A stretch of 8,453 nt of DNA. Origin: Naegleria gruberi. Taxonomy: Eukaryota. The stretch lies in NCBI GenBank assembly GCA_000004985.1, contig GG739069.1; one strand, given 5' to 3'. The notes below the pieces were generated by a model. That model saw only the letters and a program-made list of their open reading frames with translations. It ran no database searches and was not told the origin of the DNA. Shown here one piece after another: positions 1 through 8,453 of this stretch; within the stretch, counting starts at the first letter, position 1, and each line of letters opens with the position of its first letter. Position numbers and translations under genes: made by a program.

Positions 1-739
1 TAGAAAACAGTTGGTACATGTTATCCAACAGATTTTCCATATTATTCAATTCTTTCATAAATCTGGCCGAAACTAGAGTCTTGTGATGGACTAAACTAGC
101 ATAAAATCTATTTCTCAAGGTTTTTTCGTTATCCAAATAAAAATTAATAAGGGTATGATAATAGCTTGCTTTGATTTGATTTCCTTCTGCGACACAAGTC
201 ATAAACATCAAGTGACAAGAGGCACCCCAATAAAACTGTGTGATATGATCCACAGAAAGTGCTGCAATTTCACATTCTGCCCTTCTCAAAATATAATCCA
301 CATAGTCCAATTCACCCAACAGTTGTGAACTCAATGTCAAAATACCCAAATAGAAAGCATAAATACATCTCAATTCCCCCTTTGATTTTATCCATCCATC
401 ATTATGAAGCAATTCAACATCTTCCCCTCTCTCAAAACAATGCAAGTAATTATTCACAAAATGTACAAGTTTAGCCCTCTCAATCAGAGGATGAATACCA
501 CAAATGAAAGTAAAGTACAACTCAATCACCCTCATAGGTGTAATTGGAGAGGGTTTAGTTGTAAATATTCCAGCACTACCATTTGCATTATTGGTCATTG
601 TAATATCGGTACTACTCTGATCATCGGAAGTCTTTTTCTTAATAGTATCATCGGATGATGATGACGATGACTTGGATTTATCCTTTGATTTTAATGAATA
701 TAATTCAGAACCCTTTCCTCTCTTTTGTGGTGTATTGTA
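1..739 (-). CDS. Zn(2)-Cys(6) (Gal4-type) fungal transcription factor, exon 3, partial (continues past left edge)
   Basis: The reverse complement of 1-739 is open for 246 codons with no stop (YNTPQKRGKGSELYSLKSKDKSKSSSSSSDDTIKKK...VIELYFTFICGIHPLIERAKLVHF...NMENLLDNMYQLFS). It starts directly after a TTATAG acceptor whose TAG is in frame. The IELYF..HP.. stretch resembles the start of the fungal-specific TF middle domain. The ORF track misses it only because there is no stop inside the window. The track's plus-strand ORFs 259-474 and 404-658 are antisense shadows of this exon. Confidence 0.85.
653..670 (-). repeat. Imperfect trinucleotide tract encoding Ser6 within exon 3
   Basis: The plus strand reads GGATGATGATGACGATGA. 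On the coding strand this is TCA TCG TCA TCA TCA TCC (Ser x6). Confidence 0.6.
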
Positions 740-872: not shown

Positions 873-929
873 AACACATTCCGATCCGACTGCTAAACAC
901 TTTGAGCATCCACTTAATTTCTTATCACA
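873..929 (-). CDS. Zn(2)-Cys(6) transcription factor, exon 2 (second half of the zinc cluster)
   Basis: These 57 nt encode CDKKLSGCSKCLAVGSECV. Joined to exon 1 they give ACIRCRKLHKKCDKKLSGCSKCLAVGSECVY, which is C-X2-C-X6-C-X6-C-X2-C-X6-C. This aligns position for position with the Gal4 cluster as I remember it ([31 protein letters not shown]). Confidence 0.85.
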
Positions 930-978
930 CTATTTTGATGAAGTTTTTAAATGAAAGTTTTAAAAGATGAAAACAAAC
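930..978 (-). other. Spliceosomal intron 1 of the Zn(2)-Cys(6) gene (49 nt, phase 0)
   Basis: The donor is GTTTGT (starts at 978) and the acceptor AAAATAG ends at 930. I count 10 G/C in 49 nt. Unspliced reading gives the ORF-track tail VCFHLLKLSFKNFIKIV* and breaks the cysteine spacing. Splicing places Cys3 (TGT, 929-927) exactly 6 residues after Cys2. Confidence 0.85.
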
Positions 979-1134
979 CTTTTTATGCAATTTTCTACAT
1001 CGAATACATGCAATGGGATGGCAATCTCCACTAAACGTCAATTGATTCATTTGCTGATGTTCCTGTTGTTTGTCATTACTTTCACTATTATCGGGAGGAG
1101 ATGATGATGATGAAGGATCCACTTGATGAAACAT
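979..1134 (-). CDS. Zn(2)-Cys(6) transcription factor, exon 1 (start codon and first two cysteines)
   Basis: The ATG at 1134-1132 sits in an A-run context (AAAAAAATG), with an in-frame TAA five codons upstream. The 52 codons read MFHQVDPSSSSSPPDNSESNDKQQEHQQMNQLTFSGDCHPIACIRCRKLHKK and end at AAG|GTTTGT. Confidence 0.9.
1099..1113 (-). repeat. (TCA)4 TCT trinucleotide tract encoding Ser5 in exon 1
   Basis: The plus strand reads AGATGATGATGATGA. On the coding strand this is TCA TCA TCA TCA TCT. Confidence 0.6.
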
Positions 1135-1465: not shown

Positions 1466-1777
1466 ATGATTGGTGCTGGTGGTATGCCAGGTGCCGGTGC
1501 CGATGCTGCTGGTTCTTCCGATGATGCTCCTCCATCTGGTGCTCAACCAAAACTCTCTCGACTCTTACAAATTGAACAAGATTTTGCTGCAAAAGATGAC
1601 CTTGGTATTATTTCCGAAATACATGATAGTAACCAAAAGATTCTGTTGATATCATGCCACACCTTGAATGCGGATCATTCTCTCAACACGGATCATGTAA
1701 TAGTCAAGATTGATACCATCATTAGATCATACAAGATCCGAAATCCCAATACCACAATCAAGGCACCTCTCATGATT
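1466..1777 (+). CDS. 5' end of an unidentified protein-coding gene (G/A/P-rich N-terminus), truncated by the N gap
   Basis: The ATG at 1466 is in the context GAAAAAAATG, the same style as the ATGs at 1134 and 6959. The frame is open for 104 codons up to the N run. All three frames have stops in the ~120 nt upstream. The protein starts MIGAGGMPGAGADAAGSSDDAPPSGAQPK. I count 50 G/C in the 90 nt of 1466-1555, well above the surrounding sequence. I recognise no family, and internal introns cannot be excluded. Confidence 0.55.
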
Positions 1778-4700
1778 NNNNNNNNNNNNNNNNNNNNNNN
1801 NNNNNNNNNNNNNNNNNNNNNNNNNNNNNNNNNNNNNNNNNNNNNNNNNNNNNNNNNNNNNNNNNNNNNNNNNNNNNNNNNNNNNNNNNNNNNNNNNNNN
1901 NNNNNNNNNNNNNNNNNNNNNNNNNNNNNNNNNNNNNNNNNNNNNNNNNNNNNNNNNNNNNNNNNNNNNNNNNNNNNNNNNNNNNNNNNNNNNNNNNNNN
2001 NNNNNNNNNNNNNNNNNNNNNNNNNNNNNNNNNNNNNNNNNNNNNNNNNNNNNNNNNNNNNNNNNNNNNNNNNNNNNNNNNNNNNNNNNNNNNNNNNNNN
2101 NNNNNNNNNNNNNNNNNNNNNNNNNNNNNNNNNNNNNNNNNNNNNNNNNNNNNNNNNNNNNNNNNNNNNNNNNNNNNNNNNNNNNNNNNNNNNNNNNNNN
2201 NNNNNNNNNNNNNNNNNNNNNNNNNNNNNNNNNNNNNNNNNNNNNNNNNNNNNNNNNNNNNNNNNNNNNNNNNNNNNNNNNNNNNNNNNNNNNNNNNNNN
2301 NNNNNNNNNNNNNNNNNNNNNNNNNNNNNNNNNNNNNNNNNNNNNNNNNNNNNNNNNNNNNNNNNNNNNNNNNNNNNNNNNNNNNNNNNNNNNNNNNNNN
2401 NNNNNNNNNNNNNNNNNNNNNNNNNNNNNNNNNNNNNNNNNNNNNNNNNNNNNNNNNNNNNNNNNNNNNNNNNNNNNNNNNNNNNNNNNNNNNNNNNNNN
2501 NNNNNNNNNNNNNNNNNNNNNNNNNNNNNNNNNNNNNNNNNNNNNNNNNNNNNNNNNNNNNNNNNNNNNNNNNNNNNNNNNNNNNNNNNNNNNNNNNNNN
2601 NNNNNNNNNNNNNNNNNNNNNNNNNNNNNNNNNNNNNNNNNNNNNNNNNNNNNNNNNNNNNNNNNNNNNNNNNNNNNNNNNNNNNNNNNNNNNNNNNNNN
2701 NNNNNNNNNNNNNNNNNNNNNNNNNNNNNNNNNNNNNNNNNNNNNNNNNNNNNNNNNNNNNNNNNNNNNNNNNNNNNNNNNNNNNNNNNNNNNNNNNNNN
2801 NNNNNNNNNNNNNNNNNNNNNNNNNNNNNNNNNNNNNNNNNNNNNNNNNNNNNNNNNNNNNNNNNNNNNNNNNNNNNNNNNNNNNNNNNNNNNNNNNNNN
2901 NNNNNNNNNNNNNNNNNNNNNNNNNNNNNNNNNNNNNNNNNNNNNNNNNNNNNNNNNNNNNNNNNNNNNNNNNNNNNNNNNNNNNNNNNNNNNNNNNNNN
3001 NNNNNNNNNNNNNNNNNNNNNNNNNNNNNNNNNNNNNNNNNNNNNNNNNNNNNNNNNNNNNNNNNNNNNNNNNNNNNNNNNNNNNNNNNNNNNNNNNNNN
3101 NNNNNNNNNNNNNNNNNNNNNNNNNNNNNNNNNNNNNNNNNNNNNNNNNNNNNNNNNNNNNNNNNNNNNNNNNNNNNNNNNNNNNNNNNNNNNNNNNNNN
3201 NNNNNNNNNNNNNNNNNNNNNNNNNNNNNNNNNNNNNNNNNNNNNNNNNNNNNNNNNNNNNNNNNNNNNNNNNNNNNNNNNNNNNNNNNNNNNNNNNNNN
3301 NNNNNNNNNNNNNNNNNNNNNNNNNNNNNNNNNNNNNNNNNNNNNNNNNNNNNNNNNNNNNNNNNNNNNNNNNNNNNNNNNNNNNNNNNNNNNNNNNNNN
3401 NNNNNNNNNNNNNNNNNNNNNNNNNNNNNNNNNNNNNNNNNNNNNNNNNNNNNNNNNNNNNNNNNNNNNNNNNNNNNNNNNNNNNNNNNNNNNNNNNNNN
3501 NNNNNNNNNNNNNNNNNNNNNNNNNNNNNNNNNNNNNNNNNNNNNNNNNNNNNNNNNNNNNNNNNNNNNNNNNNNNNNNNNNNNNNNNNNNNNNNNNNNN
3601 NNNNNNNNNNNNNNNNNNNNNNNNNNNNNNNNNNNNNNNNNNNNNNNNNNNNNNNNNNNNNNNNNNNNNNNNNNNNNNNNNNNNNNNNNNNNNNNNNNNN
3701 NNNNNNNNNNNNNNNNNNNNNNNNNNNNNNNNNNNNNNNNNNNNNNNNNNNNNNNNNNNNNNNNNNNNNNNNNNNNNNNNNNNNNNNNNNNNNNNNNNNN
3801 NNNNNNNNNNNNNNNNNNNNNNNNNNNNNNNNNNNNNNNNNNNNNNNNNNNNNNNNNNNNNNNNNNNNNNNNNNNNNNNNNNNNNNNNNNNNNNNNNNNN
3901 NNNNNNNNNNNNNNNNNNNNNNNNNNNNNNNNNNNNNNNNNNNNNNNNNNNNNNNNNNNNNNNNNNNNNNNNNNNNNNNNNNNNNNNNNNNNNNNNNNNN
4001 NNNNNNNNNNNNNNNNNNNNNNNNNNNNNNNNNNNNNNNNNNNNNNNNNNNNNNNNNNNNNNNNNNNNNNNNNNNNNNNNNNNNNNNNNNNNNNNNNNNN
4101 NNNNNNNNNNNNNNNNNNNNNNNNNNNNNNNNNNNNNNNNNNNNNNNNNNNNNNNNNNNNNNNNNNNNNNNNNNNNNNNNNNNNNNNNNNNNNNNNNNNN
4201 NNNNNNNNNNNNNNNNNNNNNNNNNNNNNNNNNNNNNNNNNNNNNNNNNNNNNNNNNNNNNNNNNNNNNNNNNNNNNNNNNNNNNNNNNNNNNNNNNNNN
4301 NNNNNNNNNNNNNNNNNNNNNNNNNNNNNNNNNNNNNNNNNNNNNNNNNNNNNNNNNNNNNNNNNNNNNNNNNNNNNNNNNNNNNNNNNNNNNNNNNNNN
4401 NNNNNNNNNNNNNNNNNNNNNNNNNNNNNNNNNNNNNNNNNNNNNNNNNNNNNNNNNNNNNNNNNNNNNNNNNNNNNNNNNNNNNNNNNNNNNNNNNNNN
4501 NNNNNNNNNNNNNNNNNNNNNNNNNNNNNNNNNNNNNNNNNNNNNNNNNNNNNNNNNNNNNNNNNNNNNNNNNNNNNNNNNNNNNNNNNNNNNNNNNNNN
4601 NNNNNNNNNNNNNNNNNNNNNNNNNNNNNNNNNNNNNNNNNNNNNNNNNNNNNNNNNNNNNNNNNNNNNNNNNNNNNNNNNNNNNNNNNNNNNNNNNNNN

Positions 4701-5892
4701 NNNNNNNNNNNNNNNNNNNNNNNNNNNNNNNNNNNNNNNNNNNNNNNNNNNNNNNNNNNNNNNNNNNNNNNNNNNNNNNNNNNNNNNNNNNNNNNNNNNN
4801 NNNNNNNNNNNNNNNNNNNNNNNNNNNNNNNNNNNNNNNNNNNNNNNNNNNNNNNNNNNNNNNNNNNNNNNNNNNNNNNNNNNNNNNNNNNNNNNNNNNN
4901 NNNNNNNNNNNNNNNNNNNNNNNNNNNNNNNNNNNNNNNNNNNNNNNNNNNNNNNNNNNNNNNNNNNNNNNNNNNNNNNNNNNNNNNNNNNNNNNNNNNN
5001 NNNNNNNNNNNNNNNNNNNNNNNNNNNNNNNNNNNNNNNNNNNNNNNNNNNNNNNNNNNNNNNNNNNNNNNNNNNNNNNNNNNNNNNNNNNNNNNNNNNN
5101 NNNNNNNNNNNNNNNNNNNNNNNNNNNNNNNNNNNNNNNNNNNNNNNNNNNNNNNNNNNNNNNNNNNNNNNNNNNNNNNNNNNNNNNNNNNNNNNNNNNN
5201 NNNNNNNNNNNNNNNNNNNNNNNNNNNNNNNNNNNNNNNNNNNNNNNNNNNNNNNNNNNNNNNNNNNNNNNNNNNNNNNNNNNNNNNNNNNNNNNNNNNN
5301 NNNNNNNNNNNNNNNNNNNNNNNNNNNNNNNNNNNNNNNNNNNNNNNNNNNNNNNNNNNNNNNNNNNNNNNNNNNNNNNNNNNNNNNNNNNNNNNNNNNN
5401 NNNNNNNNNNNNNNNNNNNNNNNNNNNNNNNNNNNNNNNNNNNNNNNNNNNNNNNNNNNNNNNNNNNNNNNNNNNNNNNNNNNNNNNNNNNNNNNNNNNN
5501 NNNNNNNNNNNNNNNNNNNNNNNNNNNNNNNNNNNNNNNNNNNNNNNNNNNNNNNNNNNNNNNNNNNNNNNNNNNNNNNNNNNNNNNNNNNNNNNNNNNN
5601 NNNNNNNNNNNNNNNNNNNNNNNNNNNNNNNNNNNNNNNNNNNNNNNNNNNNNNNNNNNNNNNNNNNNNNNNNNNNNNNNNNNNNNNNNNNNNNNNNNNN
5701 NNNNNNNNNNNNNNNNNNNNNNNNNNNNNNNNNNNNNNNNNNNNNNNNNNNNNNNNNNNNNNNNNNNNNNNNNNNNNNNNNNNNNNNNNNNNNNNNNNNN
5801 NNNNNNNNNNNNNNNNNNNNNNNNNNNNNNNNNNNNNNNNNNNNNNNNNNNNNNNNNNNNNNNNNNNNNNNNNNNNNNNNNNNNNNNNNNNN
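1778..5892. other. Run of 4,115 N (assembly gap or masked sequence)
   Basis: The N run is uninterrupted in the sequence as given. The X-filled ORFs 1466-6058 (+) and 1770-5936 (-) in the track are artefacts of it. Confidence 0.99.
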
Positions 5893-5893
5893 G

Positions 5894-6616
5894 CTAATAG
5901 GTGATATGAGAACACAATCAAAAATCCGTCAAGCACTTCACCACGTCGAACAGGGAGCTGCTGAATCTTATACTCCTCTCCTCAAATATCGTCAAGAAGA
6001 TTTACGTGTTTATCAAGTTGCTAAGAAATTGCATACCATGTGGCAAGAAAGCGACTAGGAAAAGCCAATTACATATGATGATATCGAATTTGCCTTCAAC
6101 TTGTACAAAGTACATTGCGAAAATATGAAAATGATGAAGAGTGAATACTCTCTTGAATATACCAAGTTGATGAAGGTTCTCATTAATATTGTTTTGGTAA
6201 ACAGAGAATATTGCAAGGTTGCCAAACAAGTTCTCAATGAATCAACAAAGAAATACAAGAAGGATATTTCATCAATTGAATCGGCAATTGAATCTAAATT
6301 GAAGGAATATGAATCAACTCAAAGTAATCAAGACAAACTTTTAATGCTCAGACTCTCCTCATACACCATTCAATCTATTTCTAAATTAGACTCTGATTTG
6401 GATGCTTATGAAAATATGGTTGTCCAATGTGTGAAATTGATGTATCCAGAAAGATGTATTATCTATGATTTGGACCTTTGTAAAAAACTTCTTTACATTT
6501 GCCGTACTACAACAGCTTCTTCCCTTTTGGAAAAGAGCAAGGAAATTATGGATGTTTCCTCAGTTCACTATGATAGAGAAAAACTCTTCCAACAAGCTAT
6601 TATTAGGGACAATTAA
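5894..6616 (+). CDS. 3' end of an unidentified protein-coding gene, with one in-frame TAG at 6056-6058
   Basis: One frame is open from the gap edge to TAA 6614-6616, apart from a single TAG (...KKLHTMWQESD*EKPITYDDIEFAFNLYKV...). The 185 codons after the TAG are K/E/L-rich and partly coiled-coil-like (SIESAIESKLKEYESTQSNQDKLL). The track's start at 6101 is a TTG called under bacterial rules. I recognise no family. This could be one gene with an in-frame intron or read-through, or a gene disrupted by a nonsense change. Confidence 0.6.
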
Positions 6617-6630
6617 GGTCATCAAATGTA

Positions 6631-6673
6631 GCCCGTCTAGCTCAGTCGGTAGAGCGTCAGACTGTTAATCTGC
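6631..6673 (+). pseudogene. tRNA-like 5' half (anticodon GUU, Asn-type), lacking variable loop, T arm and 3' acceptor strand
   Basis: The sequence parses as GCCCGTC TA GCTC AGTCGGTA GAGC G TCAGA CTGTTAA TCTGC. That is the acceptor 5' strand, a canonical D arm and box A (TAGCTCAGTCGGTAGAGC), and an anticodon stem of 4 bp plus one U:C. The 7-nt loop has U33, GUU and A37. What follows is CAACAAATTTTGAAATGAAAAAAAG, with no GGTTCGA-type T arm and no GACGGGC acceptor complement. Confidence 0.7.
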
Positions 6674-6679
6674 AACAAA

Positions 6680-6689: not shown

Positions 6690-6696
6690 AAAAAAA
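6690..6696 (-). terminator. Pol III terminator (T7) of the 5S rRNA gene
   Basis: The minus strand reads ...GGTGCTGTAGTC TTTTTTT C. The oligo-T run lies immediately at the 5S 3' end. Confidence 0.8.
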
Positions 6697-6814
6697 GACT
6701 ACAGCACCACAGGTTCCCAAGTTGTCTCCAACCTCAGTACTGATGTGGCTCGACGATGCTTAACTTCTCAAATCGGACGGGATGAGGTGCATTCATCGTG
6801 ATATGGCCGTAGCC
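6696..6814 (-). rRNA. 5S ribosomal RNA gene
   Basis: The minus strand reads GGCTACGGCCATATCACGATGAATGCACCTCATCCCGTCCGATTTGAGAAGTTAAGCATCGTCGAGCCACATCAGTACTGAGGTTGGAGACAACTTGGGAACCTGTGGTGCTGTAGTCT (119 nt). It carries the conserved eukaryotic 5S blocks CGGCCATA, CCCGTCCGAT, GAAGTTAAGC, AGTACT, GGGAA and GGTGCTGTAG. The 5' and 3' ends pair as helix I (GGCTACGG with CTGTAGTC, allowing G-U). A T7 run follows. The exact ends are good to 1-2 nt. Confidence 0.92.
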
Positions 6815-6958: not shown

Positions 6959-7387
6959 ATGTATAATCACTGTCATCAGCACAATGATACGTTTGATCGT
7001 GGTGATGATTGGAGCGAGAATTGTCCCGATTTTGCTCTCCTCTCTCCAACAAACAGTTCATTCAAAAATCTCTCCTCCGATATTATTTGTTATATTGTTT
7101 TTCAATATTTGGATTACAAAACAATTACAAGTTGTTTATTATTGAATAAGGAATATTATGGAAAGATTGCAAATAATAGATTTCTTTTTATTAATATGTA
7201 TAACGAGTTATTTATTAATAAGAGAATTGCATTATCATCAGTGCAACTACCAGTACTATTTAATTGTGTATCTTTCAGTTCAGCAAATAATGAGTTATCC
7301 AGTAATTGTGAGAGAATGCTTTTGCAATCTGGGAGAATGACAGATGAAAAATTGGAATGTATTAGAAAAAAGTGGCAAGAATCAATT
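6959..7387 (+). CDS. F-box-like protein segment (first part of a putative F-box/LRR gene), ends at an in-frame TAG
   Basis: The ATG at 6959 follows an A9 run. The 143 codons include FKNLSSDIICYIVFQYLDYKTITSCLLLNKEYYGKIANNRFLF. This fits a degenerate F-box pattern (L..[DE][IL][IL]..I...L.....[IL]....L.NK..Y.......[FL][FW]), with the usual Pro and Trp replaced. TAG at 7388-7390 follows, and the same frame then reopens. Confidence 0.65.
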
Positions 7388-7390
7388 TAG

Positions 7391-7715
7391 AAAATGACTC
7401 AACGCAGCACTAGTATTAAGAATGAAAAACAACTACTGTTGAATATTATCAAAAAGATTATCAAAGACAGATTGGATATTTTAAAATTCTTTAAAAATGA
7501 ATTGAAAAGTGCACAAATAGGAGATGGAAAAATGAGACCAGCAGTTGAACTGGTCAAGGAAACACAGGACATTATTGAAAAATTGAAAACTTTTGAAGAA
7601 TTATCGTTGAGCTATCCAAGTTCTAATTACTTTCATGAATCGTTTAATAATTATATAATAGAACAACAGGAAGCTTACGAACCAATTGAGTTGAATAATA
7701 TTATTTCCATACGAG
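7391..7715 (+). CDS. Middle segment of the putative F-box/LRR gene (same frame as 6959-7387)
   Basis: The frame is open for 108 codons immediately after the TAG (KMTQRSTSIKNEKQLLLNIIKKIIKDRLDILKFFKNELKSAQ...EPIELNNIISIR). It ends at CGAG|GTTAGT. The track calls it as a separate ORF from the ATG at 7394, only 3 nt after the stop. That is too close for an independent eukaryotic gene. Confidence 0.55.
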
Positions 7716-7760
7716 GTTAGTTTCTTCTTCTTCTTTCAAGTTTGAAAAAATTTTATGTAG
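7716..7760 (+). other. Spliceosomal intron (45 nt, phase 1) in the F-box/LRR gene
   Basis: The donor is GTTAGT, followed by the pyrimidine tract TTTCTTCTTCTTCTTTC, and the acceptor is ATGTAG ending at 7760. I count 11 G/C in 45 nt. The in-frame TAG at 7718-7720 lies inside the donor. Splicing gives ...IISIR-E-NTKSTNDYV... Confidence 0.7.
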
Positions 7761-8453
7761 AAAATACCAAGTCAACCAATGATTATGTACGAAATTCCTG
7801 TTATACTTCTATTTCAATACTAAAATATTTCAAAAATCTTAAATTTCTCTATCTAGCTGGATATTGTGATTTTCAAGAGCCAGTTAAATTGAACAACTTG
7901 AAAGTATTAATTATAAGAACAGGAGTAATGGAAAATTCCATGTTACAATCAATTCTTAACTGCTCATTCCCACAATTGAAACATTTAGAATTATGGTTAG
8001 GGTCACCCTGTCAAATAAGAAGTAAAATGATCGACCTGTCACATTACAATAATGATATTACAGAAAAAAATTTAACAGAACTGCTTTCAGAATCAGATAA
8101 TGGAAAGTATCCAACATTAGAATATTTTGGTCTGAGAAATACTTATAATATTCCACAACTCTTACCACTTATTATGAAATCAAATATTGCAAAAAGAGTT
8201 AGAGTATTGGATTTATCATTATCAGGTTCAATAACAGAAAATGATGCTCTATTTATTGCAGAGCAAATCCAATTACAGAGAAAAGAATTCACATTGTTAG
8301 AATTTGTTGATTTGAGATATAATAATATTCAACTTGAAAATAATCCGAATAGGGATATCGTGATTCAACAAATTGAAGAGGAATTCAACAAAATAGGAAT
8401 TGCAGTTGATGTATCAAAATCTGATTATTGTAGAATGCAGAACATGAAATTGT
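7761..8453 (+). CDS. Leucine-rich-repeat C-terminal region of the F-box/LRR gene, partial (continues past right edge)
   Basis: I checked 230 consecutive codons one by one and found no stop: NTKSTNDYVRNSCYTSISILKYFKNLKFLYLAGYCDFQEPVKLNNLKVLIIRTGVMENSMLQSILNCSFPQLKHLELWLGSP...YPTLEYFGLRNTYNIPQLLPLIMKSNIAKRVRVLDLSLSGSITENDALFIAEQI...LLEFVDLRYNNIQLENN...IGIAVDVSKSDY. LxxLxLxx(N/G) repeats recur. The ORF track omits it because it has no stop in the window. Confidence 0.8.

What the first reader, a model, noticed from the sequence alone, without database searches (positions are those of the whole stretch)
7241..7390. In-frame TAG at 7388-7390 separates an F-box segment from its LRR partner
One frame runs from 6959 to beyond 8453, about 498 codons, with only two interruptions. 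An F-box at the N-terminus and LRRs at the C-terminus is the standard FBXL architecture (Grr1 and Skp2 type). That argues for a single gene, yet ...ECIRKKWQESI-TAG-KMTQRST... breaks it, and the next ATG is only 3 nt after the stop. CAATTTAG|A is a plausible acceptor. The only in-phase GT donors upstream are weak: GTATCT at 7268 (123-nt intron), GTACTA at 7253 (138 nt) and GTGCAA at 7241 (150 nt). The putative intron sequence also looks like coding sequence by eye rather than like the A/T-rich verified introns. Alternatives are a nonsense allele or pseudogene, read-through, stop and restart (TAG AAA ATG), or two adjacent proteins from one transcript.
Basis: partly seen in the sequence, partly recalled or inferred. 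Interest (0 to 1): 0.55.

Follow-up and report, generated by a model that had tools for sequence, protein, structure and literature searches.

The report
Nonsense TAG in Naegleria F-box gene
The TAG is a real premature stop codon that replaces a conserved serine in one divergent Naegleria gruberi copy of a single-polypeptide F-box/leucine-rich-repeat gene, so it is most likely an ordinary broken gene copy and not an intron or a new kind of recoding.

Summary
Frame +2 is open from 6959 to 8452 except for TAG 7388-7390 and TAG 7718-7720, where about 44 stops are expected by chance. The window is a complete 8453-nt Naegleria gruberi NEG-M scaffold. GenBank models it as separate proteins: EFC35682 (143 aa, ends at the TAG) and EFC35683 (LRR part).

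Homologues in N. fowleri, N. lovaniensis, Willaertia and two N. gruberi paralogues read straight through this site as one protein. The stretch 7337-7387 (MTDEKLECIRKKWQESI), which every proposed intron would remove, is conserved. The TAG falls on a column that is Ser in all five Naegleria homologues. The intron idea is therefore refuted.

The second TAG lies in a 45-nt intron (7716-7760) at the same position as the N. lovaniensis intron.

The identical 143-aa product is also annotated on a second scaffold, which argues against a random base-call error.

Just upstream, 5919-6601 is a 683-nt internal fragment of another gene. It is 99.6% identical to the intact copy and carries its own TCG-to-TAG change. 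A truncated tRNA and a 5S rRNA gene follow it. The scaffold is small, redundant and patchwork-like.

Best reading: a recent nonsense mutation (null allele or young pseudogene). Read-through or a Ser-inserting suppressor is not excluded but has no positive support. Interest is low.

The parts
6959..7715 (+). Exon 1 of the F-box / STM4015-like-LRR gene. GenBank models only 6959-7387 as EFC35682 (NAEGRDRAFT_76662, 143 aa).
   Evidence: Open frame. Collinear homology to N. lovaniensis P0001, E 3e-72 pairwise. P0039 is the exact 143-aa product.
7070..7213 (+). F-box-like segment LSSDIICYIVFQYLDYKTITSCLLLNKEYYGKIANNRFLFINMYNELF. The usual Pro of the 'LP' motif is Ser here.
   Evidence: Aligned with IPTDVLCYIILQYLDWKTV... 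of the homologues. Pfam F-box-like hits in 3 of 10 family members, none for this copy. Profile versus beta-TrCP F-box, E 0.014.
7337..7387 (+). Conserved helix MTDEKLECIRKKWQESI immediately before the TAG.
   Evidence: Aligned with MTEHKLMLIRKAWENSV, MTEQKLMLIKKTWENSV, MTDAKLRLIRERWNNAI and others. Predicted helix at residues 129-142.
7388..7390 (+). In-frame TAG (the finding), at a column that is Ser in five Naegleria homologues (TCA in N. lovaniensis, TCT in the N. gruberi paralogue 67091).
   Evidence: The identical truncated product is annotated on two scaffolds.
7394..7396 (+). First ATG after the TAG (TAG AAA ATG). It is a possible but unsupported restart or independent start.
   Evidence: The GenBank model EFC35683 instead starts at the ATG of MRPAVELV further downstream.
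7716..7760 (+). 45-nt phase-1 intron GTTAGT...TGTAG that contains the second TAG (7718-7720).
   Evidence: The length is a multiple of 3. N. lovaniensis has a 63-nt GTAAGT intron at the same place. The same 45-nt stretch is present in the independent contig L006. Removing it keeps the conserved ...NLK...G block, which the 141-nt intron implied by the GenBank model would delete.
7761..8453 (+). Exon 2, the LRR-type module, running off the scaffold end. The STM4015-like match covers about 7817-8425.
   Evidence: NCBIfam NF038076, E 1.2e-23, below the family cut-off. Profile versus PDB 2ra8_A, E 9e-32. Foldseek 2ra8, E 1.8e-10.
8437..8446 (+). Two single-base deletions relative to the 98.7%-identical contig L006. 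They destroy the natural end ...DYCRIAEH-TGA. They lie in the last 17 nt of the scaffold.
   Evidence: Probably read-end errors and not true lesions (inference from their position).
5919..6601 (+). 683-nt internal fragment of the N. gruberi gene XP_002679028.1 (369 aa, intact on a 530-kb scaffold), with TCG-to-TAG at 6056-6058. It is part of the context and not part of the F-box gene.
   Evidence: blastn against L005: 680/683 identical, no gaps, homology ends abruptly at both sides. Protein alignment.
6631..6674 (+). 5' part of a tRNA (anticodon loop CUGUUAA, so GUU/Asn type), truncated after the anticodon stem.
   Evidence: ARAGORN finds no tRNA. Rfam tRNA 25 bits, below the gathering score, with the T-arm replaced by unrelated sequence.
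6696..6814 (-). Complete 5S rRNA gene followed by a T7 run.
   Evidence: Rfam RF00001, 105.4 bits, E 1.8e-23, model positions 1-120. The T-run is read directly from the sequence.

Best explanation
The TAG at 7388-7390 is a genuine nonsense codon in the DNA of N. gruberi NEG-M. It arose recently at a conserved serine codon of a single-polypeptide gene. That gene has an N-terminal F-box-like motif, a helical linker and a C-terminal STM4015/2ra8-type leucine-rich-repeat module.

Shown here: the gene is one unit in all relatives. The sequence on both sides of the TAG is conserved coding sequence. The TAG replaces Ser. The other TAG is intronic. The same truncated product is annotated on two scaffolds.

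Inferred: translation stops here and gives a 143-residue F-box-only stub, so this copy is a null allele or a young pseudogene. It lies on a small, redundant, patchwork-like scaffold that also carries a dead gene fragment with a TCG-to-TAG change.
For: 1. Organism and annotation. P0006, P0039 and P0166 (EFC35681, EFC35682, EFC35683) are exact N. gruberi products of this window, and P0166 sits on a contig of 8453 nt, which is the window length.
2. Single gene. P0001 aligns over 96% of the joined translation (E 2e-55; pairwise). P0160, P0013, P0165, P0012, P0164 and P0011 all read through the site.
3. The TAG column is Ser in five of five Naegleria homologues, with codons TCA and TCT in the two examined.
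4. The second TAG lies in a positionally conserved intron.
5. The same 143-aa product is found on a 33,919-nt scaffold (EFC36078). Part of the left-end gene of the window is also identical to a model on a contig of the same length.
6. The neighbouring 683-nt fragment is 680/683 identical to the intact gene, and one of the three differences is TCG-to-TAG. This shows that nonsense changes sit unrepaired on this scaffold.
7. This copy has lost a block conserved in all other full members (Y.G..PNEHYHF..DY, about 37 residues) and the Pro of the F-box LP motif.
8. Downstream of the TAG, window versus L006 shows 6 nonsynonymous and 3 synonymous changes. dN/dS is about 0.5, not different from neutral (p 0.40).
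9. There is no read-through context and no downstream RNA structure.
Against: Apart from the one TAG, the 483-codon reading frame is intact in a 29% G+C sequence, so any loss of function is very recent or the gene is still used in some way.

dN/dS of 0.5 rests on nine changes and does not exclude constraint.

The two frameshifting indels lie in the last 17 nt of the scaffold and are probably read-end errors, so they cannot be counted as pseudogene lesions.

Both TAGs of the scaffold fall on Ser columns after W-Q-E-S-x. That coincidence is improbable under random mutation: TCG is about 3% of the codons one step from TAG, and the chance of WQES at fixed offsets is about 1.5e-6.

No read, RNA or protein data could be examined.
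Confidence: 0.62

Rival explanations
1. Split gene that is still used. The F-box stub (143 aa) and the LRR module are made as two proteins, the second from its own transcript or by re-initiation at ATG 7394 (or 7532 as in the GenBank model).
For: An ATG lies 3 nt after the TAG. The downstream frame is intact for about 340 codons. The TAG falls just after a predicted helix, in a low-confidence loop before a region of variable length in the family. The STM4015-like module exists as free-standing proteins of about 300 aa in other organisms (P0002). GenBank annotates two genes.
Against: All eight homologues examined encode one polypeptide. Re-initiation after a 143-codon ORF is inefficient in eukaryotes (established knowledge). 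An F-box without its substrate-binding module, and a module without its F-box, lose the logic of an SCF adaptor. No promoter evidence exists.
Confidence: 0.12
2. Translational recoding. UAG is read through here, either by context-dependent read-through or by a Ser-inserting amber suppressor tRNA in N. gruberi, so that the full-length protein is made.
For: Both in-frame TAGs on the scaffold occupy Ser columns and follow W-Q-E-S-x. The frame is otherwise intact. None of the five genuine gene ends visible in the N. gruberi-type contigs uses TAG (4 TAA, 1 TGA), although that sample is tiny.
Against: The intact parent of the upstream fragment uses TCG, and the fragment is truncated at both ends, so its TAG is an unselected mutation. 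Homologues and paralogues use ordinary Ser codons. No CAR-YYA or CUAG context follows either TAG, and there is no downstream structure (z 0.43 and -0.13). Full-text searches for Naegleria with UAG/'stop codon', 'in-frame stop' and 'suppressor tRNA' listed no paper whose title or abstract reports such recoding (the hits were not opened).
Confidence: 0.07
3. Sequencing or assembly error in a thinly covered Sanger scaffold. The true codon would be a Ser codon such as TCG.
For: The scaffold is only 8453 nt with a 4115-nt gap, so each contig rests on few reads. Two single-base indels relative to L006 sit at the extreme scaffold end.
Against: The identical 143-aa product ending at this stop is annotated on a second scaffold, and the same holds for the 163-aa product downstream of the other TAG. 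There are no frameshifts elsewhere in about 2.4 kb of coding sequence. Position 7389 is in the middle of its contig.
Confidence: 0.07
4. The TAG is removed by splicing: donors at 7241, 7253 or 7268 with the acceptor at 7390, or a mini-intron 7372-7407 or 7372-7413.
For: In-phase GT...AG pairs exist. The gene has a confirmed 45-nt intron elsewhere.
Against: Every candidate deletes residues conserved in six homologues, including the W-x-x-S-x-S motif and for the longer ones MTDEKLECIRKK. The donors GTGCAA, GTACTA, GTATCT and GTGGCA differ from the GTTAGT, GTAAGT and GTTTGT donors of the introns seen here. Homologues have no intron at this place.
Confidence: 0.02

Closest known systems
Naegleria/Willaertia F-box + STM4015-like LRR proteins: N. 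fowleri FDP41_001029 (XP_044564589.1), N. lovaniensis C9374_014053 (XP_044553485.1), Willaertia ABK040_011197 and ABK040_014843, and the N. gruberi paralogues NAEGRDRAFT_67091 and NAEGRDRAFT_71640
   Same: Collinear homology over the whole length. They share the F-box-like motif, the conserved helix MT[DE].KL..I...W..[SA][VI]S, the KKIIKDRL linker, FPQLKHLELW and GK[FY]P.LEYFG in the LRR module, and the intron position.
   Different: This copy is only 33-38% identical to the others. It has TAG instead of the conserved Ser. It lacks the PNEHYHF block and the F-box Pro. It carries an 11-residue insert after HLELWLG. On this scaffold it has lost the C-terminal RYIAVGE-like end.
FBXL-type F-box/LRR substrate adaptors of SCF ubiquitin ligases (Skp2, Grr1)
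   Same: N-terminal F-box-type motif followed by a C-terminal alpha/beta solenoid of leucine-rich repeats. It presumably has the same adaptor logic (inference).
   Different: The repeat module is related to the STM4015 family and to PDB 2ra8, not to the Skp2-type repeats. Pfam does not recognise an F-box in this copy. Skp1 binding is untested.
STM4015 family proteins (NCBIfam NF038076) and B. fragilis Q64V53 (PDB 2ra8)
   Same: The C-terminal 230 residues match at E 1.2e-23. The family profile matches 2ra8 at E 9e-32. The predicted fold matches 2ra8 at Foldseek E 1.8e-10.
   Different: The score (84 bits) is far below the family cut-off (275 bits). The named family consists of free-standing proteins of about 300 aa without an F-box.
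Young unitary pseudogenes or null alleles with a single premature stop
   Same: One nonsense codon at a conserved residue in an otherwise intact frame. The neighbouring sequence carries another decayed gene piece. Substitutions downstream are compatible with neutrality.
   Different: Loss of function is not demonstrated, and no independent lesion can be trusted.
Programmed stop-codon read-through and natural amber suppression
   Same: An in-frame UAG inside a conserved, otherwise open frame.
   Different: The stop is not conserved in relatives. No known stimulatory context or structure is present. No suppressor tRNA is known for Naegleria.

Membership tests
FBXL-type F-box/LRR protein (Skp2/Grr1) | Recognisable F-box motif of about 45 residues | tested here: inconclusive
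   There is no Pfam F-box or F-box-like hit at E<=1 for 6959-7387 or for the joined protein. Homologues in the same alignment columns do hit F-box-like (3 of 10, best E 4e-8), one of them also hits F-box (E 1.2e-4). The family profile matches beta-TrCP F-box chains at E 0.014-0.023.
FBXL-type F-box/LRR protein (Skp2/Grr1) | C-terminal repeats of the FBXL (cysteine-containing, LRR_6-like) type | tested here: not met
   Only sub-threshold LRR hits were found (LRR_At5g56370 E 0.0094, LRR_4 E 0.61). The module matches STM4015 and 2ra8 instead.
FBXL-type F-box/LRR protein (Skp2/Grr1) | F-box and repeats on one polypeptide | tested here: not met
   This copy is interrupted by TAG 7388-7390. The feature is met in all homologues.
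FBXL-type F-box/LRR protein (Skp2/Grr1) | Binds Skp1 and recruits substrates to an SCF ligase | not testable with these tools
   This requires biochemistry.
Naegleria/Willaertia F-box + STM4015-like family | Collinear full-length homology | tested here: met
   E 2e-55 with 96% coverage to P0001; alignment A3.
Naegleria/Willaertia F-box + STM4015-like family | Intron at the junction of the linker and the LRR module | tested here: met
   The window has a 45-nt intron at 7716-7760. N. lovaniensis has a 63-nt intron and the N. gruberi paralogue 67091 has a GTAAGT intron at the same place.
Naegleria/Willaertia F-box + STM4015-like family | Conserved block Y.G..PNEHYHF..DY | tested here: not met
   It is absent from the window copy as a gap of about 37 residues.
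Spliceosomal intron covering 7241-7390 | In-phase GT...AG borders | tested here: met
Spliceosomal intron covering 7241-7390 | Sequence not represented in homologous proteins | tested here: not met
   7337-7387 encodes a helix conserved in six homologues.
Programmed stop-codon read-through | Stop codon conserved in relatives | tested here: not met
   Relatives have Ser codons TCA and TCT at this position.
Programmed stop-codon read-through | Stimulatory 3' context or downstream RNA structure | tested here: not met
   The sequences after the stops are TAG AAA ATG and TAG GAA AAG. Folding z-scores are 0.43 and -0.13.
Reassigned UAG / natural amber suppression | Cognate tRNA with anticodon CUA | not testable with these tools
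   The N. gruberi genome is not held. The only tRNA-like sequence in the window is a truncated GUU type.
Reassigned UAG / natural amber suppression | In-frame TAG at conserved sense positions of functional genes | tested here: inconclusive
   There are two cases in the window, both at Ser columns. One is in a truncated fragment whose intact parent has TCG.
Pseudogene / null allele | Premature stop relative to orthologues | tested here: met
Pseudogene / null allele | Relaxed constraint or further lesions | tested here: inconclusive
   dN/dS is about 0.5 from 6 nonsynonymous and 3 synonymous changes. The two indels lie at the scaffold end and are suspect. A conserved block has been lost.
Pseudogene / null allele | No full-length protein made | not testable with these tools
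   This needs proteomics or ribosome profiling.

The most novel reading that the evidence does not exclude
N. gruberi (or strain NEG-M) decodes some UAG codons as serine, through a tRNA-Ser-derived amber suppressor or a context-dependent mechanism linked to the preceding W-Q-E-S-x peptide or codons. TCG-to-TAG changes at serine codons would then be tolerated and the F-box/LRR protein would be made full-length.
Probability: 0.03. Interest if true: 0.8.

Novelty: new member of a known kind. Interest (0 to 1): 0.15.

Why it matters
The practical value is for annotation. GenBank entries EFC35682 and EFC35683 (XP_002668426 and XP_002668427) are two halves of one interrupted gene. EFC35681 is a fragment of XP_002679028 and not a gene. 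The 141-nt intron implied by the EFC35683 model is probably wrong, and 45 nt fits the homologues.

The work also defines a heterolobosean family that joins an F-box to an STM4015/2ra8-type repeat module otherwise known as free-standing, uncharacterised proteins.

It would matter for genetic-code biology only if the TAG turned out to be decoded. Nothing found here supports that.

Tried and rejected
1. Ciliate-type or other reassigned code. Rejected as the default because CAA is the common Gln codon, there are no in-frame TAA or TGA codons, and the organism proved to be N. gruberi.
2. Yeast origin, suggested by codon usage and a Zn-finger-like exon at 928-1134(-). Rejected by exact N. gruberi protein matches.
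3. The '1530-aa ORF' 1466-6058. It is an artefact of translating a 4115-nt run of N.
4. Intron candidates. All were enumerated and rejected on conservation.
5. The first word-indexed protein search missed the exact N. gruberi product and most homologues. 'No N. gruberi protein' was therefore a false negative, corrected by the exhaustive search.
6. Independent DNA across the TAG. Exact look-up of the 143-aa ORF in the contig index found nothing. A pattern scan and a peptide-pattern scan of JGI metagenomes found nothing. The one independent contig, L006, starts at window position 7554, 164 nt downstream of the TAG.
7. Downstream RNA structure for read-through. None found.
8. Treating the two terminal indels as pseudogene lesions. 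Withdrawn once the window was recognised as the whole scaffold, because they lie at its last 17 nt.
9. Literature searches for UAG recoding or suppressor tRNA in Naegleria. The listed titles and abstracts showed nothing relevant.

Full report
**1. The observation**

Frame +2 of the window is open from the ATG at 6959 to the last base. It is interrupted only by TAG 7388-7390 and TAG 7718-7720. The stretch is 29% G+C. Its composition predicts about 44 stop codons in 498 codons, and the two other frames hold 37 and 55. This is therefore a real coding frame. The three in-phase GT donors at 7241, 7253 and 7268 with the acceptor at 7390 are all present.

**2. What the window is**

Exact protein matches identify the organism as Naegleria gruberi NEG-M.
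- 6125-6613 is EFC35681 (163 aa).
- 6959-7387 is EFC35682, NAEGRDRAFT_76662 (143 aa). It ends at the TAG.
- The LRR part is EFC35683, a 'partial' 246-aa model on a contig of 8453 nt. That is the window length, so the window is a whole small scaffold.
- The run of N at 1778-5892 is most simply a scaffold gap. The '1530-aa ORF' listed across it is an artefact.
- The same 143-aa and 163-aa products are each annotated a second time, on contigs of 33,919 and 14,084 nt. Part of the gene at the left end of the window is identical to a model on a 33,919-nt contig. The scaffold's content is thus present at least twice in the assembly, either as haplotigs of a heterozygous genome or as a recent duplication. 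PMC9928731 describes Naegleria as 'mainly a heterozygous diploid'.

**3. One gene or two**

The joined translation matches N. lovaniensis C9374_014053 (542 aa) at E 2e-55 over 96% of its length. The pairwise alignment runs straight across the TAG.

An exhaustive profile-free search with that protein recovered these relatives:
- N. fowleri FDP41_001029 (549 aa).
- Two Willaertia magna proteins (534 and 549 aa).
- An environmental Naegleria-type sequence.
- Two N. gruberi paralogues, NAEGRDRAFT_67091 and NAEGRDRAFT_71640.

In the multiple alignment every one of them is continuous through the site.

The 17 residues before the TAG (MTDEKLECIRKKWQESI, 7337-7387) align with MTEHKLMLIRKAWENSV, MTEQKLMLIKKTWENSV, MTDAKLRLIRERWNNAI, MTDAKLRLIREKWNTAI and MSDQKLMLIKRKWEEAV. 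The TAG column is Ser in all five Naegleria sequences and Gln in Willaertia. The Ser codon is TCA in N. lovaniensis and TCT in the N. gruberi paralogue. After the TAG comes a linker of variable length and then the strongly conserved KNE.Q.LL.LIKKIIKDRL.

The intron explanation is wrong. Each in-phase GT...AG pair that removes the TAG would delete conserved residues, and the homologues have no intron here.

**4. The second TAG**

TAG 7718-7720 lies in GTTAGT...TGTAG (7716-7760, 45 nt, phase 1).
- N. lovaniensis has a 63-nt GTAAGT intron at the homologous point, after ...NIVSLFC versus ...NNIISIR.
- The N. gruberi paralogue 67091 also has an intron there.
- An independent metagenome contig of an N. 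gruberi-type amoeba carries the same 45 nt. This is L006, ENA ERZ929261, 98.7% identical to window 7554-8451.
- The GenBank model EFC35683 joins ...ISIR directly to AGYCDFQ. That implies a 141-nt intron (7716-7856) and would delete the conserved ...NLK...G segment. The 45-nt version fits the family better.

**5. What the protein is**

Pfam finds no F-box in this copy. Homologues in the same columns do have one: F-box-like in 3 of 10 members, best E 4e-8. The family profile weakly matches the beta-TrCP F-box (E 0.014).

The C-terminal module matches three references:
- NCBIfam NF038076 'STM4015 family protein', at E 1.2e-23 but far below the family cut-off.
- PDB 2ra8 (B. fragilis Q64V53), at E 9e-32 by profile.
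- PDB 2ra8 again, at Foldseek E 1.8e-10 with an AlphaFold model of moderate confidence (mean pLDDT 62, pTM 0.67).

The architecture is an F-box-like motif, a helical linker and an LRR-type solenoid. It is analogous to FBXL adaptors but is not a Skp2/Grr1-type member.

The window copy is the most divergent member, 33-38% identical to the others. It lacks the conserved Y.G..PNEHYHF..DY block, has Ser for the F-box Pro, and carries an 11-residue insert.

**6. The neighbourhood**

Window 5919-6601 is 680/683 identical, without gaps, to an internal part of the intact N. gruberi gene XP_002679028.1 (369 aa, on a 530-kb scaffold). The DNA of that gene was read from contig L005. Homology stops abruptly at both ends.

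One of the three differences is TCG-to-TAG at 6056-6058. N. fowleri, N. lovaniensis and an environmental relative have Ser at this position. This piece is a dead gene fragment, and the GenBank 'predicted protein' EFC35681 is its tail.

It is followed by a tRNA truncated after the anticodon stem (6631-6674) and a complete 5S rRNA gene on the minus strand (6696-6814, 105 bits) with a T7 terminator. The scaffold is therefore a patchwork of the kind that collects in poorly assembling, redundant regions.

**7. Mechanism**

The best-supported reading is a plain, recent nonsense mutation of a serine codon. Translation would end after 143 residues and this copy would be a null allele or young pseudogene.

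Shown:
- The gene is a single unit in relatives.
- The flanks of the TAG are conserved coding sequence.
- The TAG replaces Ser.
- The stop is annotated in two separately assembled contigs.
- A second unrepaired TCG-to-TAG change lies next door.
- The gene has lost family-conserved features.

Inferred: termination at the TAG and loss of function.

Substitutions between the window and L006 downstream of the TAG are 6 nonsynonymous and 3 synonymous. dN/dS is about 0.5. That is not distinguishable from neutrality (p 0.40) and only marginally different from strong constraint (p 0.07). The two 1-nt deletions that destroy the natural end (...DYCRIAEH-TGA in L006) lie in the last 17 nt of the scaffold, so I treat them as probable read-end errors.

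**8. Rivals**

- A functional split into two proteins is possible. An ATG lies 3 nt after the TAG, the downstream frame is intact, and free-standing STM4015-type proteins exist. No relative is organised this way.
- Read-through or suppression has no positive support. The stop is not conserved, no known stimulatory context follows it, there is no downstream structure, and the literature searches listed nothing relevant.
- A base-call error is made unlikely by the duplicate annotation.
- The intron is contradicted by conservation.

**9. An unexplained coincidence**

Both in-frame TAGs of this scaffold replace a conserved Ser and both follow W-Q-E-S-x (TGGCAAGAA AGC GAC TAG and TGGCAAGAA TCA ATT TAG).

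From the window's own usage, TCG is only about 3% of the codons one step from TAG. The chance of W, Q, E and S at four fixed offsets is about 1.5e-6.

The W-x-x-S-x-S motif is ancestral in both families. The six bases between the shared nonamer and the TAG differ completely, so gene conversion does not explain it.

Because the upstream TAG sits in a truncated fragment whose intact parent has TCG, I regard this as coincidence. It is the only hint for the speculative reading that UAG can be read as Ser in this organism. I give that reading about 3%.

**10. Verdict**

The explanation is ordinary: a nonsense-interrupted copy of a lineage-specific F-box/LRR gene on a small redundant scaffold, mis-annotated as two genes. 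Interest is low. The useful outputs are the annotation corrections and the definition of the F-box + STM4015-like family.

Noticed in passing
window 5919-6601: A 683-nt internal fragment of the N. gruberi gene XP_002679028.1, which is annotated 'methyl-accepting chemotaxis protein'. It is 680/683 identical to the intact copy, has sharp ends, and carries TCG-to-TAG at 6056-6058. GenBank EFC35681 (163 aa) is just the tail of this fragment.
   Followed up: yes
window 6056-6058 and 7388-7390: Both in-frame TAGs replace a conserved Ser and both are preceded by W-Q-E-S-x with the identical nonamer TGGCAAGAA. This is statistically odd and unexplained.
   Followed up: partly
window 6696-6814 (-): A complete 5S rRNA gene (Rfam 105 bits) with a T7 terminator, lying between the gene fragment and the F-box gene.
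   Followed up: partly
window 6631-6674 (+): The 5' part of a tRNA (GUU anticodon loop), cut off after the anticodon stem about 20 nt before the 3' end of the convergent 5S gene. ARAGORN calls no tRNA.
   Followed up: partly
window 7716-7856: The GenBank model EFC35683 joins ...ISIR to AGYCDFQ, which implies a 141-nt intron. Homology and contig L006 favour the 45-nt intron 7716-7760, which retains a conserved segment.
   Followed up: yes
window 8437-8446 versus L006 884-893: Two single-base deletions in the last 17 nt of the scaffold remove the natural C-terminus and TGA stop seen in the 98.7%-identical metagenome contig. They are probably read-end errors. L006 itself has Arg for the family-conserved Trp of HLELW.
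   Followed up: partly
window 1778-5892: A run of 4115 N, most simply a scaffold gap. ORF lists that translate N as X create spurious 1530-aa and 1388-aa ORFs across it.
   Followed up: yes
window 2-739 (-) and 928-1134 (-): A minus-strand gene running off the left end, with a likely upstream exon that contains a C-x2-C motif (ACIRCRKLHKK) and a GTTTGT donor. Residues 178-245 are identical to the start of NAEGRDRAFT_76254 on a 33,919-nt scaffold.
   Followed up: partly
window 7817-8425; proteins P0002, P0019: The LRR module of this heterolobosean F-box family is homologous to the STM4015 family, with 833 hits at E<=0.001 in the representative library. This suggests that a free-standing module was fused to an F-box. 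The origin of the fusion was not examined.
   Followed up: no
The word-indexed protein search missed the exact 143-aa N. gruberi product and all but one homologue for this low-complexity, AT-rich query. Negative results from that tool should not be trusted for such sequences.
   Followed up: yes
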